Shown here in pieces: positions 686 to 21,453 of a stretch of DNA of 34,483 bases. Made by a program: the position numbers and the translations under genes. Under the pieces are notes generated by a model that was not told the origin of the DNA, made no database searches, and was given only the letters and a program-made list of their open reading frames with translations. Origin of the DNA: a virus (taxonomy: Duplodnaviria; Caudoviricetes); the IMG/VR virus record IMGVR_UViG_3300032212_000100, positions 1-34,483 of that record. The stretch is one strand, 5' to 3'. Every line of letters begins with the position of its first letter. The stretch's first letter is position 1.

Positions 686-729
686 ATCACACCTCATTTA
701 TTTATTTGTTTGTGTTTAATTTTTGTTCA

Positions 730-820
730 GAGGTGGGTAGCTTTTCAGGGCCAACTCCTAGAATTTCATGGTCTTCCTTACCATAAATCATACAAGGGCC
801 CAGAACGGGGTAGCCTGCAC
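730..820 (-). promoter_or_regulatory. Structured 5' leader of the capsid gene (three hairpins, two with the same internal loop)
   Basis: Hand-folded minus-strand hairpins at 820-790, 788-762 and 758-730. The GCTACC/GGCCC pair occurs twice. Confidence 0.55.
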
Positions 821-830
821 AATTTAATAA

Positions 831-860
831 AGTATATACGACAACAAATACAAATGTCAA
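831..860 (-). promoter_or_regulatory. Sigma70-like promoter for the capsid gene
   Basis: TTGACA (860-855), 18 nt, TATACT (836-831). Confidence 0.65.
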
Positions 861-884
861 CAGGGGCAAACGCCCCTGTTGACA
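855..884. terminator. Perfect 13-bp hairpin downstream of the scaffold gene
   Basis: TGTCAACAGGGGC-AAAC-GCCCCTGTTGACA, followed on the minus strand by the U-rich TTTGTATTTGTT. Confidence 0.6.
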
Positions 885-905
885 AGATACCTATCAATCA
901 CAGTT

Positions 906-5626: not shown

Positions 5627-5697
5627 GCCGCCTTAGCTCAACTGGCAGAGCAACCCTAATACGGGTGATGTGGGTTCAAGTCCTACAGGTGACACCA
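5627..5697 (+). tRNA. tRNA-like gene with truncated anticodon arm (isotype undetermined)
   Basis: Acceptor GCCGCCT/AGGTGAC, T8A9, D arm GCTC-AACTGGCA-GAGC, T arm GTGGG-TTCAAGT-CCTAC, discriminator A and encoded CCA. The anticodon arm is only ACCC-TAATAC-GGGT. Confidence 0.8.
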
Positions 5698-5713: not shown

Positions 5714-5902
5714 ATGAACCATCATTTTGAACCTGAAAACCGTTGCAAGGTATGCCAAACTTTAGATTGTGAAAATGAGATGTGCTTACCTGATGCACCA
5801 ATGCACATGATTGGTGATGAAGATATACCACAGCTTGGATCTGAAGAATCTGGTCGTTTCTTTCAACCATTGGATTATGTCCAAGAAAAAGGAGGTGACT
5901 AA
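5714..5902 (+). CDS. Small Cys-rich acidic hypothetical protein
   Basis: SD GAGGTG before the ATG, CxxC-x4-C-x4-C, located between the tRNA-like gene and a terminator. Confidence 0.6.
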   Translation: MNHHFEPENRCKVCQTLDCENEMCLPDAPMHMIGDEDIPQLGSEESGRFFQPLDYVQEKGGD

Positions 5903-11327: not shown

Positions 11328-11392
11328 CCATCAACATTACCAGTGTGCATAGTACATTGCAACAAATTTAAAAAGATGTTTAAAATCAACGG

Positions 11393-11660
11393 TGTAACAA
11401 ACTGTAACAAACTTGTAACATAATTTTCTGTTTAATTTCAATGGTGTAACAAATGTAACTGATGTAACAAACTTTTCTCGAGAACCCCACATGCACACGC
11501 ACATGCGCACACGTGCACACGCACATGCGCACACACCCACATACGCTTATATATATATATTGTTACATTTGTTACATATATATATATAAAGCCAAAACCC
11601 TTTCTCACTTTCATCTTTTGCTGTAACAAGCATTTGTTACAAAATGTTACATTTGTTACA
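11393..11660. repeat. Iteron cluster, putative replication origin
   Basis: TGTAAC(A/T) at 11393, 11403, 11414, 11445, 11454, 11463, 11622. TGTTACA at 11561, 11570, 11635, 11645, 11654. A purine-pyrimidine alternating tract and (TA)n tracts lie in the middle. Confidence 0.75.
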
Positions 11661-11886
11661 AAAGTCAACAAATCCGCGCTCCCAAAATTTCCTCCAAACA
11701 TAAGCTGGATTTCACTTTTTAGTTGTTTATGTTAAAAAAACAGGAAAATAAAGATCCGCCTTTCGTGATAAGACTTTTATAAAACTAACCCCAATACGTG
11801 GGTGGCGGGACCGTTTTCCGGGGGCCTCTTTTTTTTCGCCATATACACCCCCCCTATCTACTTTTTAACCAAAACAAGCCATTTAG

Positions 11887-11912
11887 TGTAAATCACTGAA
11901 CAGTGGTTAACA
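11887..11912. other. Candidate serine recombinase crossover site (12-2-12 imperfect inverted repeat)
   Basis: TGTAAATCACTG-AA-CAGTGGTTAACA, arms match 10/12. Confidence 0.4.
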
Positions 11913-12089
11913 AAAAACCGCAAAAAATCCCCTTACATATGATAGATTTATTTAACTTTTAAACCCAAAATCAGCAAAATAACGGCCTGAGAATGCATAC
12001 AATTCAAGCTCAGCAAGGATTTTCGCTTATTATTTTGCTCACCACTTAGTAGCGCGGATTTGTAACTTTAAAAAAATACATAAAAGGGC

Positions 12090-12118
12090 TTGACGTTCTT
12101 ACAAAGAAACACTATAAA
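12090..12118 (+). promoter_or_regulatory. Sigma70-like early promoter
   Basis: TTGACG, 17 nt, TATAAA, with an A-rich upstream tract. Confidence 0.75.
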
Positions 12119-12126
12119 TATATTTA

Positions 12127-12150
12127 GCTGATAACTAAAAAGGATAAAAC
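12127..12150 (+). promoter_or_regulatory. Leader box pair 1 (putative antisense target) spanning the RBS
   Basis: GCTGATAAC (12127-12135) and GGATAAAAC (12142-12150), each complementary to a hairpin tip of the 14747-14903 RNA. Confidence 0.65.
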
Positions 12151-12153
12151 GAC

Positions 12154-12291
12154 ATGATAAAACAAATTAAAACGATCACAGCGCCATTTAGCGCAAAACA
12201 GTTGATGCTTGAATATGCGATTGTGCTTATATCAATATTCAGCTTCCTTTCACTATTAACAATAATTGCCGTAATGGCTGGGGGTGAATAA
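12154..12291 (+). CDS. 45-aa single-pass membrane peptide, first early gene
   Basis: MIKQIKTITAPFSAKQLMLEYAIVLISIFSFLSLLTIIAVMAGGE. SD AAAGGA, TAATG overlap with the next ORF. Below the ORF-track cutoff. Confidence 0.7.
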   Translation: MIKQIKTITAPFSAKQLMLEYAIVLISIFSFLSLLTIIAVMAGGE

Positions 12292-12530
12292 TGCAAAACC
12301 TACAAGCAATAGAAATAAAATACCTGCGCCCCACAAACACACGTGGCGCACGTATGCAAGCAACAGCTGCAGCAGGAAGAAAGCTTTTTCCGTACGATTT
12401 TGAAAAAACAATCCAAGAGCAAGCAAAAGACGTTGCAGCGCAATATTGCAAGCTTAAAGGGTGGAGCTATAAAACGCTGCACATTGGCATATTAAAGAAC
12501 GGCAATTCCGTTGCTGTGATGACAAGGTAA
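12291..12530 (+). CDS. Hypothetical early protein
   Basis: 79 aa with IEIKYLRPTNTRGARM, coupled to the upstream stop codon. Confidence 0.75.
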   Translation: MQNLQAIEIKYLRPTNTRGARMQATAAAGRKLFPYDFEKTIQEQAKDVAAQYCKLKGWSYKTLHIGILKNGNSVAVMTR

Positions 12531-12541
12531 AGGTTGGAATC

Positions 12542-12844
12542 ATGAAAAAAGAAATTATCTTAAAAGAGGTTTATGTCATGCGTGGCGCAAAAAGGGAAAA
12601 AGTGACATACCCAAGCAAATCAACAGACAAAAACTTAAAATTTAAACTAGGTGATAGGGTGGAATATACAAACGATTACGGCGTTAAATTTAAAGAACTT
12701 CAAATAATAGGTTTTTTTGAACCAAATTTAAATTGCCGTGTAGATGCTGGCTTGTGGAAAAGCGGTAAACGCTACCACATCAGCACAGATTGTCACTGGT
12801 CACCAGTGACAGAAAAAAGCCTAAAACTTGAGAGGAGCAAATAA
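12542..12844 (+). CDS. Hypothetical early protein (SH3-like FKLGDRV motif)
   Basis: 100-aa ORF in the operon. Confidence 0.7.
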   Translation: MKKEIILKEVYVMRGAKREKVTYPSKSTDKNLKFKLGDRVEYTNDYGVKFKELQIIGFFEPNLNCRVDAGLWKSGKRYHISTDCHWSPVTEKSLKLERSK

Positions 12845-12845
12845 G

Positions 12846-13127
12846 ATGCTGTTAACATACGCAAAAGGCAACGCTTATGCAGTTGTAAGGGATGACATGA
12901 CACACAACGGCTACATCGAACACATTAAAACAGGCATAACAACAGCATGGTTTGTATGCTCTGAAGGCGCCGAAGAACTTTTAAACCTTAGAAGATTAAG
13001 AAAGGCGCTAGGGAAAAACGGGCTTGACGGCGCATGCTCTGAATATTTTACGGAAGGTGCAACGGTTTACAACGCACTTTGCGAATACGGGCACATTCAC
13101 AACGGGCACTTTGAAAAAGGAGATTAA
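12846..13127 (+). CDS. Hypothetical early protein
   Basis: ATG at 12846 (MLLTYAKG) after SD GAGGAG. Confidence 0.65.
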   Translation: MLLTYAKGNAYAVVRDDMTHNGYIEHIKTGITTAWFVCSEGAEELLNLRRLRKALGKNGLDGACSEYFTEGATVYNALCEYGHIHNGHFEKGD

Positions 13128-13171
13128 AACATTCAATCCAGCGCCTTGCGGGGTGCTGGGGTGAGTATTTT
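13126..13171 (+). promoter_or_regulatory. Long imperfect intergenic hairpin (RNase III-type processing site or stabiliser)
   Basis: TCCAGCGCCT-TGCG-GGGTGCTGGG, extendable to about 19 bp with G-U pairs and two mismatches. Confidence 0.55.
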
Positions 13172-13182
13172 ACTCAAAACAA

Positions 13183-13204
13183 GCTGATAACAATTAAAAG
13201 GATA
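13183..13204 (+). promoter_or_regulatory. Leader box pair 2 (putative antisense target) spanning the RBS
   Basis: GCTGATAACA (13183-13192) and GGATA (13200-13204), the same arrangement as at 12127-12150. Confidence 0.6.
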
Positions 13205-13211
13205 TTATATC

Positions 13212-13496
13212 ATGACAAACGAACACATAAAAACGCAATGGCATATATCAGACAATAAGAAAATGCCTTATTTAATTTACAATAACAAAGGCTATGCCGT
13301 TGCTGACTGTAAAGTATATCACGGGAAAAGTGATATAAAATCAGACATGAACTTAATAGCAGCAGCGCCAGAAATGTTAGAAGCCCTTGAATCGGTGCTC
13401 CCTGATCTAAAACACTATATTTCAATACAAGGGGCAGGCCCAGACAAAAGGCTTGAGGCCGTTATTTCAGCAATTAAAAAAGCAAAGGGGGAATAA
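13212..13496 (+). CDS. Hypothetical early protein (LIAAAPEMLEAL family)
   Basis: Common phage motif NLIAAAPEMLEAL...AIKKAKGE. SD AAAGGA. Confidence 0.8.
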   Translation: MTNEHIKTQWHISDNKKMPYLIYNNKGYAVADCKVYHGKSDIKSDMNLIAAAPEMLEALESVLPDLKHYISIQGAGPDKRLEAVISAIKKAKGE

Positions 13497-13498
13497 TC

Positions 13499-13666
13499 AT
13501 GTACATGACAGTTCTTTATCACAGACACGAAACCCATGATCAATGGGCGGTTATTAACTGTAAAACTGGTGAATATTACCATGCAGAGACGCCAGACAAG
13601 CCGGCAAATGATGAATTAATGAGAAAATTAACCTTAGGAGCAAAGGCTCAAGAAAATGAAAAATGA
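13499..13666 (+). CDS. Hypothetical 55-aa protein
   Basis: MYMTVLYHRHETHDQWAVINCKTGEYY..., SD AGGGGG, fills the operon gap. Confidence 0.6.
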   Translation: MYMTVLYHRHETHDQWAVINCKTGEYYHAETPDKPANDELMRKLTLGAKAQENEK

Positions 13667-13835
13667 TATAAACGAAGTTTTCCGTATACTTGACGAAGCA
13701 ACGGAAGATATGCGAAACCCGCCACCGCATGAAGATATGAATCTAAAAACATCTCTTACAGGTGCAGAAATTGAAGGGATTTACGACAATATTGTATCAG
13801 CAATGAAAATATTGGAGGGAATATCAGATGAATAA
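13656..13835 (+). CDS. Hypothetical 59-aa acidic protein
   Basis: MKNDINEVFRILDEATED..., overlaps both neighbours. Confidence 0.6.
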   Translation: MKNDINEVFRILDEATEDMRNPPPHEDMNLKTSLTGAEIEGIYDNIVSAMKILEGISDE

Positions 13836-14493
13836 AGCCATTGCATACATCAGAGTTTCAACAGAAAAACAAGCTATCCATGGGGTTAGCTTGGAGGCTC
13901 AAGAGAAGAAAATCAAGGAATATTGCACGCGCAAAAACCTTGATTTGTCAAAAATAATGATTGATAAAGGCGTTTCAGGAGGTACAAAGCTAAAAAACCG
14001 CCCTGAAGGGTGCAAAATATCGCAAGAAATAGCAGCAGGAATAACGCATATTGTATCAGTGAAGCTAGATAGACTCTTTCGCGACACTGTTGACGCCCTC
14101 GTTTCAATTGAAACATGGGAAGAGAAAGGCGTTGCCCTTCACTTACTAGATTTTGCAGGTGAAGAGGTCAGCAGCAACAGCAGCGCAGGAAAACTAATGT
14201 TTACCATCCACGCAGGCTTTGCCCAAATGGAAAAAGATCTCATAAAAGAGCGCACAACAGTTGCCTTATCACACAAAAAAGCAAAGGGCGAAAGGTGCGG
14301 GCAAATACCATTTGGTTATACCGTAAACAACAAAGTTTTAGTTGAAGTGCCAGGGCGTGAAAAAGCATTGGAATGCATACATGAATTACACAAAATTGGG
14401 AAAAGTAGCCGCTTCATTGCAGATGCAATACAATCAGATTTTGGCCTAAAAGTAAGCCATGTAACCGTAAACAAGCTAATTAAGGAGATCTAG
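13828..14493 (+). CDS. Serine recombinase (resolvase/invertase family)
   Basis: AYIRVST catalytic motif, DKGVSG, KLDRLFR, MEKDLIKERT, then PFGY and a C-terminal HTH-like segment. 221 aa. Confidence 0.93.
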   Translation: MNKAIAYIRVSTEKQAIHGVSLEAQEKKIKEYCTRKNLDLSKIMIDKGVSGGTKLKNRPEGCKISQEIAAGITHIVSVKLDRLFRDTVDALVSIETWEEKGVALHLLDFAGEEVSSNSSAGKLMFTIHAGFAQMEKDLIKERTTVALSHKKAKGERCGQIPFGYTVNNKVLVEVPGREKALECIHELHKIGKSSRFIADAIQSDFGLKVSHVTVNKLIKEI

Positions 14494-14494
14494 T

Positions 14495-14737
14495 ATGATT
14501 TTTGGACCATGCCCGTACTGTGATGAAATAGTTGCTAACGCAATTCCAGATGAAACACCTGTATTCGGAAAAACAACATGTGAAAACTGTGGCAAAGAAT
14601 ACTGGTTAAGATACAGCAGAATATCCCCAGAAGCGTACACAAAAGAGCAGTTTGAAGATGAATATGAAATCAATAAAGAAACAAAAGTAATCAGCCTCAA
14701 AAGAAAAAATCTTGACAACGTAAACAAGGAAATGTAA
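14495..14737 (+). CDS. Zinc-ribbon hypothetical protein
   Basis: CPYC...CENC. Confidence 0.75.
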   Translation: MIFGPCPYCDEIVANAIPDETPVFGKTTCENCGKEYWLRYSRISPEAYTKEQFEDEYEINKETKVISLKRKNLDNVNKEM

Positions 14738-14740
14738 CGT
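14712..14740 (+). promoter_or_regulatory. Sigma70-like promoter of the predicted ncRNA
   Basis: TTGACA (14712-14717), 17 nt, TAACGT (14735-14740). No substantial ORF lies between it and the terminator. Confidence 0.7.
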
Positions 14741-14746
14741 ATCACA

Positions 14747-14903
14747 AGTTAATTGTTCCTTTAGAGATTAACTAAATTTTCAGGAAAGGTTTTATCCAAC
14801 CCTACCTGAAAAAGGGTGGGTCAGTTCAAATGTTATCAGCATTCAACTTCCAACCCATCCACCCATAAGTGCCCAATAAAAAGCCTCTTAACAGAGGCTT
14901 TTT
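14747..14903 (+). ncRNA. Predicted structured antisense sRNA (three hairpins plus terminator)
   Basis: H1 14747-14773, H2 14777-14812 (loop TTATCC), H3 14814-14860 (loop TTATCAG), bounded by a promoter and a terminator. H2 and H3 tips are complementary to the early leader boxes. Confidence 0.7.
14878..14903. terminator. Bidirectional rho-independent terminator
   Basis: AAAAAGCCTCT-TAAC-AGAGGCTTTTT between converging units. Confidence 0.9.
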
Positions 14904-14905
14904 AT

Positions 14906-15016
14906 TTATAGTTTTCTTAAATTATACTTATGCGTAAACAAACAGTGCACACAAACAAATTTACTTTCCACACACACACCAGAATGGAAACCAATCCAAC
15001 ACAAAAACTTCCTCAT
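14906..15016 (-). CDS. 36-aa Cys/His protein (DUF1660-like)
   Basis: MRKFLCWIGFHSGVCVESKFVCVHCLFTHKYNLRKL, SD AGGAG, ends at the terminator. Confidence 0.6.
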   Translation of the reverse strand: MRKFLCWIGFHSGVCVESKFVCVHCLFTHKYNLRKL

Positions 15017-20887: not shown

Positions 20888-21162
20888 TCGCCTTTCGCTT
20901 TGTGTTTTTGGAGTAGTTTTTCGTATTTTGCAATTTTATACTCCAGTGCGTTTATCCTTACATCATGCTTCACAACTGTAGGGTTTTCAGAATTAGCGAA
21001 ATCAATACCACGTAATATTTTTGCACTGCTAAGAGCCGCTTTGTATTCCAACAGACATTCTTCCAAAGCCTCCACCAACTCCGCATTCTGCTGCTTGAGA
21101 ATTGCGTTTTGTTTAAGTAAAATTCCTTGTCTCGCTAATATCCTGTGTTCTTCACCCATCAC
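20884..21162 (-). CDS. Hypothetical coiled-coil protein
   Basis: 92 aa, 4-bp overlaps with both neighbours. Confidence 0.7.
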   Translation of the reverse strand: MMGEEHRILARQGILLKQNAILKQQNAELVEALEECLLEYKAALSSAKILRGIDFANSENPTVVKHDVRINALEYKIAKYEKLLQKHKAKGE

Positions 21163-21380
21163 TCACCTCCATCCGCTACAGGAAGCCCATGAAGGATCCT
21201 GTACAACATTACCAAATGGTTAAAGCTTGGCCTTGTACCGCTCTCCCATTTACTTACATATGTTCTTGGTACCCCCATAGCCTGAGCAACATCTACCTGC
21301 CTCATACCAGCTCCAAGGCGCAGCTTCTTCATATTATCCATGGTGCGCTCAATATCATATTCACTTTTATTTATTACCAT
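21159..21380 (-). CDS. XRE-family HTH regulator (Cro-like)
   Basis: MKKLRLGAGMRQVDVAQAMGVPRTYVSKWESG..RP. First gene of the replication operon. Confidence 0.88.
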   Translation of the reverse strand: MVINKSEYDIERTMDNMKKLRLGAGMRQVDVAQAMGVPRTYVSKWESGTRPSFNHLVMLYRILHGLPVADGGE

Positions 21381-21453
21381 TGTTCATCCTCAGCATTTTT
21401 AATTCATCGCAATACTTACATCTTAAAAGGTACTTGTAAAGAACTTTTTATTG

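What the first reader, a model, noticed from the sequence alone, without database searches (positions are those of the whole stretch)
14712..14903. Candidate trans-acting two-loop antisense RNA that clamps early-gene ribosome-binding sites
Seen: TTGACA-17-TAACGT precedes ~155 nt with no substantial ORF, folding by hand into three hairpins and a terminator. The H2 tip GTTTTATCC (14789-14797) is the exact complement of GGATAAAAC (12142-12150). The H3 tip GTTATCAGC (14832-14840) is the exact complement of GCTGATAAC (12127-12135). These boxes are 6 nt apart, in the correct antiparallel order, and overlap the AAAGGA SD of the first early gene about 2.6 kb away. A second leader has a 10/10 match to the H3 tip (13183-13192) and a 5-nt match to the H2 loop (13200-13204). 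The H1 loop also exposes an anti-SD TCCTTT. Established: P1/P7 C4 RNA and P4 CI RNA use loop sequences to pair with bipartite leader targets and control immunity. Inference: this is an RNA-based repression or immunity circuit, placed at the distal end of the operon it controls, in a phage with no recognisable CI. I do not recognise it as a known family.
Basis: partly seen in the sequence, partly recalled or inferred. Interest (0 to 1): 0.85.

Follow-up and report, generated by a model that had tools for sequence, protein, structure and literature searches.

The report
Phage small RNA matching early leaders
An uncultured phage carries a predicted folded small RNA whose two hairpin tips are exactly complementary to the start region of its first early gene, so it likely blocks translation of that gene, although no transcript or related copy could be found to test this.

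Summary
All coordinates check out. 14747-14906 folds into three hairpins plus a terminator (z -5.5; -4.0 without the terminator). It starts 7 nt after the genome's only TTGACA-17-TANNNT and has no Rfam hit. The H3 and H2 tips match 9+9 nt of the first early leader, the best two-site target in the genome. Shuffled controls reach this in 0.3-0.5% of trials. With accessibility counted, the two named leaders rank 1 and 2 of 52, by a thin margin. Other early genes are not enriched.

Against: no homologue was reachable, so there is no covariation test. The one syntenic relative obtained shows no such RNA, both strands fold equally well, and expression is untested. 'No recognisable CI' is not supported: an XRE/HTH_3 gene is present, and a palindromic operator candidate sits in the early promoter, at the same two promoters in the relative.

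Best reading (0.55): a trans-acting two-loop antisense RNA that shuts off early translation, on top of protein control of transcription. It works like P1 C4 but is not a C4 member. Immunity is not shown.

The parts
14712..14740 (+). Predicted sigma70-type promoter of the RNA (TTGACA-17-TAACGT), overlapping the last codons of the 80-aa ORF
   Evidence: the only TTGACA-N17-TANNNT in the genome (0.73 expected per shuffled genome); predicted start 14747 is the first base of H1
14747..14773 (+). Hairpin H1; 11-nt loop with anti-SD TCCTTT (complement of AAAGGA in both leaders)
14777..14812 (+). Hairpin H2; 6-nt loop TTATCC; tip 14789-14797 complementary to box B
14814..14860 (+). Hairpin H3; tip 14831-14840 complementary to box A of both leaders; loop predicted 3-5 nt (7 if two weak pairs open)
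14875..14906 (.). Symmetric 14-bp hairpin with T runs on both strands; predicted bidirectional terminator between the early operon/RNA and the convergent primase operon
12090..12118 (+). Predicted early promoter (TTGACG-17-TATAAA), start about 12125-12126
12095..12109 (.). Palindromic operator candidate (GTTCTT-N3-AAGAAC, 1 mismatch) in the early promoter spacer
   Evidence: same position in G001 with 0 mismatches
12127..12135 (+). Box A of leader 1, at the predicted 5' end of the early mRNA
   Evidence: leader predicted unstructured from 12125/12126
12142..12150 (+). Box B of leader 1, overlapping the SD (12139-12144) and ending 3 nt before ATG 12154
12154..12291 (+). First early ORF, 45 aa with a hydrophobic stretch, no family; predicted target 1
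13125..13172 (+). Long hairpin just upstream of leader 2, without a T tail; possible processing site (inference)
   Evidence: z -5.9; a second contig in run X1 matches 13125-13179 with 3 differences
13183..13204 (+). Leader 2: box A (13183-13192), SD AAAGGA (13197-13202), 5-nt box B (13200-13204)
13212..13496 (+). 94-aa early ORF (phrog_1273, unknown function); predicted target 2
13828..14493 (+). Small serine recombinase (PF00239 only) in the early operon
14495..14737 (+). Last early ORF, 80 aa, two CxxC motifs; the family match covers residues 6-66 only, not the part holding the RNA promoter
21162..21383 (-). XRE/HTH_3 protein, 73 aa, first gene of the primase operon; candidate binder of the operator
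   Evidence: 48% identical to the G001 orthologue
21430..21444 (.). Second operator candidate (1 mismatch), upstream of the XRE/primase operon

Best explanation
14747-14906 is a predicted ~160-nt small RNA whose H3 and H2 tips are exactly complementary to two boxes in the first early leader, and it likely pairs there in trans and blocks translation initiation. Shown: the complementarity, its order, its overlap with the SD, and the repeat of box A before a second early gene. Predicted: the fold, the promoter and terminator, and an unstructured leader 1 that begins at box A. Inferred: H3 recognises box A (specificity) while H2, or the anti-SD loop of H1 at leader 2, covers the SD; the short tip stems open to give about 9+9 bp; ribosomes are excluded from genes 12154 and 13212, perhaps with polarity on the genes behind them. 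The RNA promoter has no operator and would fire together with the early promoter, so the most likely role is a delayed shut-off of early translation as the stable RNA builds up, beside XRE control of early transcription. Superinfection immunity in a carrier state is the second possibility (about 60:40 within this explanation; a judgement, not a measurement).
For: Structure z -5.5, and -4.0 without the terminator. Predicted start coincides with the first base of H1 at the only perfect -35/17/TANNNT site. Best two-site target over both strands of the genome is 12127 (-26.5 kcal/mol; next non-self -24.9). With accessibility, 12154 and 13212 rank 1 and 2 of 52 leaders (-11.2, -10.7). Nulls for 18 nt or more: 16 of 3000 and 60 of 20000; with a second leader at 15 or more: 2 of 3000 and 11 of 20000; 0 of 1587 foreign leaders reach 17. 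In 69 other AT-rich phage loci (1.02 Mb, 422 tip pairs) the best score was 16. The two leaders keep both boxes while the sequence between and after them differs. The division of labour matches that described for C4 loops a' and b' (PMC5320573, passages).
Against: No homologue: Rfam none; a single-sequence model found nothing below E 3.8 in 162 loci and nothing in 5 whole records. The syntenic relative G001 has no structured RNA at the matching position; it is distant (primase 43%) and its early genes differ. The minus strand folds as well (z -4.4 vs -4.0; H2 is better on minus, -16.2 vs -11.3), so folding does not fix the strand. The margin is small (third leader -10.2), and by single site the two leaders rank 3 and 4. 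The other 7 early genes are not enriched (p 0.74 and 0.47). In the genome-wide scan leader 2 was 9th among non-self sites. Part of the H2/H1 match is generic anti-SD sequence. The finding was picked from about 250,000 windows, so a within-genome probability near 1e-3 will also produce chance cases. One search is an imperfect control: it ignored loops under 5 nt and so missed H3 itself, and its loci are partly redundant.
Confidence: 0.55

Rival explanations
1. The RNA is real, but the match to the early leaders is partly or wholly chance; its C/U-rich loops act on host mRNAs or it has another role.
For: Two of three loops are generic anti-SD (TCC) sequence; a non-early gene (20449) scores 16 nt; best single-site partners pair with the unstructured linker, not the loops; selection from a very large scan.
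Against: The H3 box is not SD-like, occurs on the + strand only in the two early leaders, and the joint match is reached in under 0.1% of shuffles.
Confidence: 0.22
2. The GATAA boxes are binding sites for a protein (DNA operator at +2 of the early promoter, or RNA site), and the copies at 14789-14840 are further sites read on the other strand.
For: In G001 the element at the same position after the early -10 is a repeat that also occurs three times in the upstream non-coding region, which looks like a DNA site. Leader 1 has GATAA three times at 13-bp steps (12130, 12143, 12156). Half-sites of small serine recombinases contain a GATAA-like core (recalled, not from a call), and one is encoded in this operon.
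Against: The boxes are not palindromic and form no inverted pair of crossover-site geometry (by eye). A DNA site has no reason to sit at the tips of two stable hairpins behind a promoter. The early promoter already has a separate conserved palindrome. Box A does not recur in the window's upstream non-coding region at one mismatch.
Confidence: 0.13
3. The functional molecule is the minus strand: a decoy RNA that shows the leader motifs themselves (GGAUAA, CUGAUAA, AAAGGA) in loops and titrates a translational repressor, as CsrB-type RNAs do.
For: Minus strand folds at least as well; two of its three loops hold GGA.
Against: No minus-strand promoter passed the scans between the terminator and H3, and the bidirectional terminator lies directly upstream on that strand; the + strand promoter fits H1 to the base.
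Confidence: 0.06
4. No separate RNA: the segment is the structured 3' untranslated end of the early mRNA (stabilising or insulating hairpins) with no trans role.
For: It lies between the last early stop codon and the terminator; the -10 element is weak (3 of 6).
Against: Perfect -35 at the right distance; does not explain the loop matches. A 3'-derived RNA could still act as in the best explanation.
Confidence: 0.04

Closest known systems
C4 antisense RNA of phages P1 and P7 (Rfam RF01695)
   Same: Three stem-loops; two loops pair with a bipartite target, one covering the ribosome-binding site and one binding upstream for specificity (PMC5320573, passages).
   Different: No Rfam match at gathering or at E up to 10. 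About 160 nt, tandem hairpins ending in a terminator, against about 77 nt cut from a precursor by RNase P. It lies 2.6 kb downstream of its first target behind its own predicted promoter. No antirepressor or icd gene was recognised in the operon.
CI RNA of satellite phage P4 (seqA/seqC)
   Same: Phage RNA that pairs with two short complementary sequences to shut off an early operon (PMC4825925, passage).
   Different: CI is processed from the leader it controls, its targets flank it, and it causes transcription termination. Here both boxes are adjacent at a translation start far upstream, and no terminator follows leader 1.
OxyS sRNA on fhlA mRNA (E. coli)
   Same: Separately transcribed multi-hairpin sRNA that uses two loops on one mRNA near the start (detail recalled; only the search listing was seen).
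   Different: Host stress RNA; loop-loop pairing to a structured target (recalled), whereas leader 1 is predicted unstructured unless the transcript starts at or before 12123.
Start-associated sequences (SAS) of cluster K mycobacteriophages
   Same: Asymmetric repeat just before start codons of non-structural genes, containing the SD, with partner unknown (PMC3203893, passages).
   Different: 11-19 copies per genome there, two here; different sequence; here a candidate complementary RNA is present.
P22 sar and lambda OOP/aQ antisense RNAs
   Same: Phage RNAs that repress phage genes by pairing (PMC12197685, passages).
   Different: These are, to my recall and for aQ per the passage, encoded in cis opposite their targets; this one is trans with short split complementarity.

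Membership tests
C4 antisense RNA (RF01695 and related) | Match to the Rfam covariance model | tested here: not met
   no C4-family match; only terminator-like sub-threshold hits
C4 antisense RNA (RF01695 and related) | Two loops complementary to a bipartite target, one overlapping the RBS and one upstream | tested here: met
C4 antisense RNA (RF01695 and related) | About 77 nt, cut from a longer precursor by RNase P at a GGW start of the closing stem | tested here: not met
   Predicted unit is about 160 nt of tandem hairpins with no closing stem; processing itself cannot be tested
C4 antisense RNA (RF01695 and related) | Part of an immI operon controlling icd and antirepressor | tested here: not met
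   No such family among the nine early ORFs in PHROGs or Pfam; seven have no functional label
C4 antisense RNA (RF01695 and related) | Loop and target vary together between heteroimmune phages | not testable with these tools
   No homologue reachable
P4 CI RNA | Encoded inside the controlled leader with targets on both sides | tested here: not met
   Both targets are 1.5-2.6 kb upstream
P4 CI RNA | Pairing causes premature termination | not testable with these tools
   No intrinsic terminator after leader 1; Rho-dependent polarity cannot be tested
CsrB/RsmZ-type decoy RNA | Many GGA motifs in loops of the transcribed strand; Rfam match | tested here: not met
   No Rfam hit; GGA loops are on the strand without a fitting promoter
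Trans-acting base-pairing sRNA (general) | Independent transcript that represses the target by pairing | not testable with these tools
   Promoter, terminator and pairing are predictions only

The most novel reading that the evidence does not exclude
This is one instance of an undescribed, recurrent class of phage small RNAs that are transcribed on their own at the end of the early region and clamp the shared leader of early genes with two or three loops, acting as a translational timer (and, through loop/box variation, an immunity-specificity code) unrelated in sequence to C4. It would be a second, RNA layer on a promoter that is also under XRE control.
Probability: 0.3. Interest if true: 0.75.

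Novelty: new variant of a known kind. Interest (0 to 1): 0.5.

Why it matters
Phage RNAs that repress the phage's own genes in trans by short split pairing are known from few systems (P1/P7 C4, P4 CI, 24B_1). A separately transcribed RNA that shuts early translation would show how a small phage with only an HTH-size regulator turns early genes off, would offer a partner for unexplained start-associated repeats, and is directly testable as a 160-nt RNA plus a 28-nt leader in a laboratory reporter strain.

Tried and rejected
Relatives. TerL and recombinase single-protein scans of viral contigs gave 0 loci and 1 distant locus. The leader pattern gave 11 loci, none with a relative of the window's proteins or a two-loop complement. 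The recombinase alignment gave 8 viral loci at 29-39% and 2 genome loci at 25%. The metagenome scan returned only L097, an identical copy of the window's contig. TerL alignments gave 76 and 80 loci at 36-54%, from 6 and 14 of 64 parts of the collection. The leader-2 hairpin pattern gave 1 chance hit. The primase alignment gave only G001. blastn of phages and plasmids gave short chance or terminator matches. One close relative exists (34,649-bp contig; TerL 66%, recombinase 66%, primase 67% over the region searched) but its DNA was not obtainable.

Expression: no RNA holder listed; the single DNA run X1 may be the source. Low-depth contigs in X1 match the leader-2 hairpin and 14699-14735 and then diverge; the diverged leader letters were not displayed.

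A wider regulon: raw duplex energies put four early genes on top (12154, 12846, 13212, 12542), but this vanished with accessibility, so I reject it. One search used an H2 loop off by one base (2 of 1500) and is superseded. An antisense 89-codon ORF (14745-14476) whose SD would be the H1 loop complement has no support (top score 0.83). A 10-nt complement of G001's second leader lies in unstructured sequence antisense to an ORF and is treated as chance. An inversion-site reading of the boxes was rejected by eye on geometry.

Literature: two specific searches returned 0 papers; some searches returned papers on the known systems. The library lacks most subscription papers, and no supplements were read; those of PMC2864571 and PMC12197685 could list further phage RNAs.

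Full report
Context. The window is a 34.5-kb phage contig whose two ends overlap in the capsid gene. PHROGs identifies capsid, head-tail adaptor, tail tubular proteins, terminase, a 939-aa primase/helicase, a small serine recombinase and an XRE-type HTH protein. Nine short + strand ORFs (12154-14737) form an early-type operon between a repeat-rich non-coding region (11330-12090) and the convergent primase operon. The only run holding this DNA is a DNA run, X1, recorded as a microbial mat metagenome and possibly the source. The host is unknown.

Observation. Every coordinate is correct. 14747-14903 folds into H1, H2, H3 and a terminator at -45.7 kcal/mol, z -5.49, 0 of 200 shuffles; the three hairpins alone give z -4.0, 0 of 150. 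The promoter is the only TTGACA-N17-TANNNT in the genome. Such a site is expected 0.73 times per shuffled genome, so its presence is unremarkable, but its predicted start falls on the first base of H1. It overlaps the last codons of the 80-aa ORF, outside the part that matches a family (residues 6-66). The terminator is symmetric and would serve both strands. The early promoter TTGACG-17-TATAAA (12090-12118) puts box A at the 5' end of a 28-nt leader predicted to be unstructured; if the transcript began at or before 12123, box A would be a 7-nt loop on a weak stem, complementary to a 7-nt H3 loop.

Is the match more than chance? Scanning both strands for an H3 site followed by an H2 site, 12127 is best (-26.5; next non-self -24.9); leader 2 is 9th among non-self sites. 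With opening energies and the whole RNA allowed to pair, the two named leaders are first and second of 52 (-11.2, -10.7; third -10.2); at leader 2 the best partner for the SD is the H1 loop rather than H2; by single site they are third and fourth. Counting exact loop-covering matches for any pair of tips in any order, 18 nt is reached in 16 of 3000 leader shuffles and 60 of 20000 tip shuffles; with a second leader at 15 or more, in 2 of 3000 and 11 of 20000; 0 of 1587 leaders from other AT-rich phage loci reach 17 and 1 reaches 16. The second leader is a copy of the first, so it is not fully independent, and gene 20449 also scores 16. A blind run over 69 loci (1.02 Mb, 422 tip pairs) peaked at 16, but it ignored loops under 5 nt and missed H3 in the window itself. 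So the match is real at about 1e-3 within this genome. That is good but not conclusive after selection from about 250,000 windows. An apparent extension to genes 12846 and 12542 did not survive accessibility (the other 7 early genes, p 0.74 and 0.47).

Strand. The minus strand folds as well (z -4.4 vs -4.0; H2 -16.2 vs -11.3; H3 equal; H1 slightly better on plus). The + strand is preferred only because of the promoter and because the terminator lies directly upstream on the minus strand.

Relatives. Rfam has no match. A close relative exists (34,649 bp, 66-67% in three proteins) but its DNA could not be obtained, which leaves covariation untested. The one syntenic record obtained, G001 (L098, L163-L165), shares TerL, TerS, the 106-aa gene, primase (43%) and XRE (48%) and has a serine-recombinase-like ORF by its N-terminal motif (by eye). 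Its early genes differ (ArdC, a small ORF, an IS1595 zinc ribbon). It has no structured RNA at the matching position and no match to a one-sequence model. The model found nothing below E 3.8 in 99 + 63 loci; a one-sequence model is insensitive, so this is weak evidence of absence. G001's second early leader resembles the window's boxes (GCTGATGAAAC, then AAAAAAGG before ATG) and there the GCTGA part sits in a local hairpin; I cannot explain this.

Protein control. A palindrome GTTCTT-N3-AAGAAC lies in the spacer of the early promoter in both phages (window 12095, 1 mismatch; L098 7459, 0). I defined the consensus from those two sites; the only other window site within one mismatch is 21430, upstream of the XRE/primase operon (2 sites observed, 0.11 expected in shuffles), and the only other G001 site within two mismatches is upstream of its XRE/primase operon. 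The XRE protein is the obvious candidate binder (inference). The RNA promoter lacks this site. The early promoter therefore likely has ordinary protein control, and the RNA need not stand in for a missing CI. The recombinase has only the resolvase catalytic domain, and no prophage was found in the one genome scan, so a temperate life style is not shown.

Mechanism. Most likely the RNA is made from its own promoter from the start of infection, accumulates, and binds the early mRNA: H3 on box A, H2 or H1 on the SD, opening the short tip stems to about 9+9 bp and excluding ribosomes from 12154 and 13212. The hairpin before leader 2 (z -5.9, shared by a second contig in X1) may be a processing site that exposes box A there. 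Only the complementarity is shown; the rest is prediction or inference. Confidence 0.55. Rivals: chance match with another function (0.22), protein sites (0.13), minus-strand decoy (0.06), plain 3' UTR (0.04).

Known systems. It works like P1/P7 C4 (two loops, one on the RBS, one upstream; PMC5320573, passages) and loosely like P4 CI (PMC4825925, passage), but fails membership on model match, size, processing architecture and operon context. Papers seen: passages of PMC5320573, PMC8201110, PMC4825925, PMC2864571, PMC12197685 and PMC3203893; listing only for the OxyS papers; the OxyS two-loop detail and the recombinase half-site core are recalled. Two targeted searches for a trans-acting phage RNA against early-gene ribosome-binding sites returned 0 papers; the library is incomplete. 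Earlier notes of this scan list 101 findings holding similar words, of which I saw 8; none is similar in sequence. They are unchecked AI notes: they suggest a recurrent theme and also warn of reader bias, and I do not count them as support.

Verdict. Observation confirmed; antisense interpretation plausible and statistically supported in one genome, unproven; immunity framing not supported. New variant of a known kind; interest 0.5.

Noticed in passing
window 12095-12109 and 21430-21444; L098 7459-7473 and 530-544: 15-bp palindrome GTTCTT-N3-AAGAAC at the early promoter and at the XRE/primase operon promoter in both phages; likely XRE operator
   Followed up: partly
window 13125-13172: Long hairpin without T tail before leader 2 (z -5.9), shared with 3 differences by a second contig in run X1; possible RNase III-type processing site
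   Followed up: partly
window 5627-5694 (+): tRNA-like element (Rfam tRNA 37.9 bits, not called by ARAGORN) with a short anticodon arm, opposite to the late genes, followed by a 62-aa ORF (5714-5902) and a terminator-like hairpin
   Followed up: no
window 698-905 (-): Structured leader before the capsid gene (z -4.7 to -4.9); a TTGACA-18-TATACT promoter at 860 whose -35 lies in one arm of a long inverted repeat
   Followed up: no
window 11400-11700; L098 8050-8230: TGTTACA/TGTAACA, TATATA and CACA-type repeats between the small terminase region and the early promoter in both phages; origin- or packaging-like
   Followed up: no
L098 7997, 7949, 7918, 7439 (-): Four copies of GCGGTGGACAA, three in the upstream non-coding region and one at the predicted start of the early transcript
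   Followed up: no
L098 6400-6435 (-): Second early leader resembles the window's boxes, with the GCTGA part paired in a local GAAA hairpin; no complementary structured RNA found in G001
   Followed up: partly
L163 576-637: Near-perfect inverted repeat of about 30 bp (z -9.5) between two genes of G001
   Followed up: no
window 12846-12858 and its SD: Start of ORF 12846 matches the H3 tip at 12 of 13 nt and its SD pairs with the H1 loop with G-U pairs; not significant once accessibility was counted
   Followed up: yes
window 12154-12291: First early gene is a 45-aa peptide with a hydrophobic stretch and no family
   Followed up: partly
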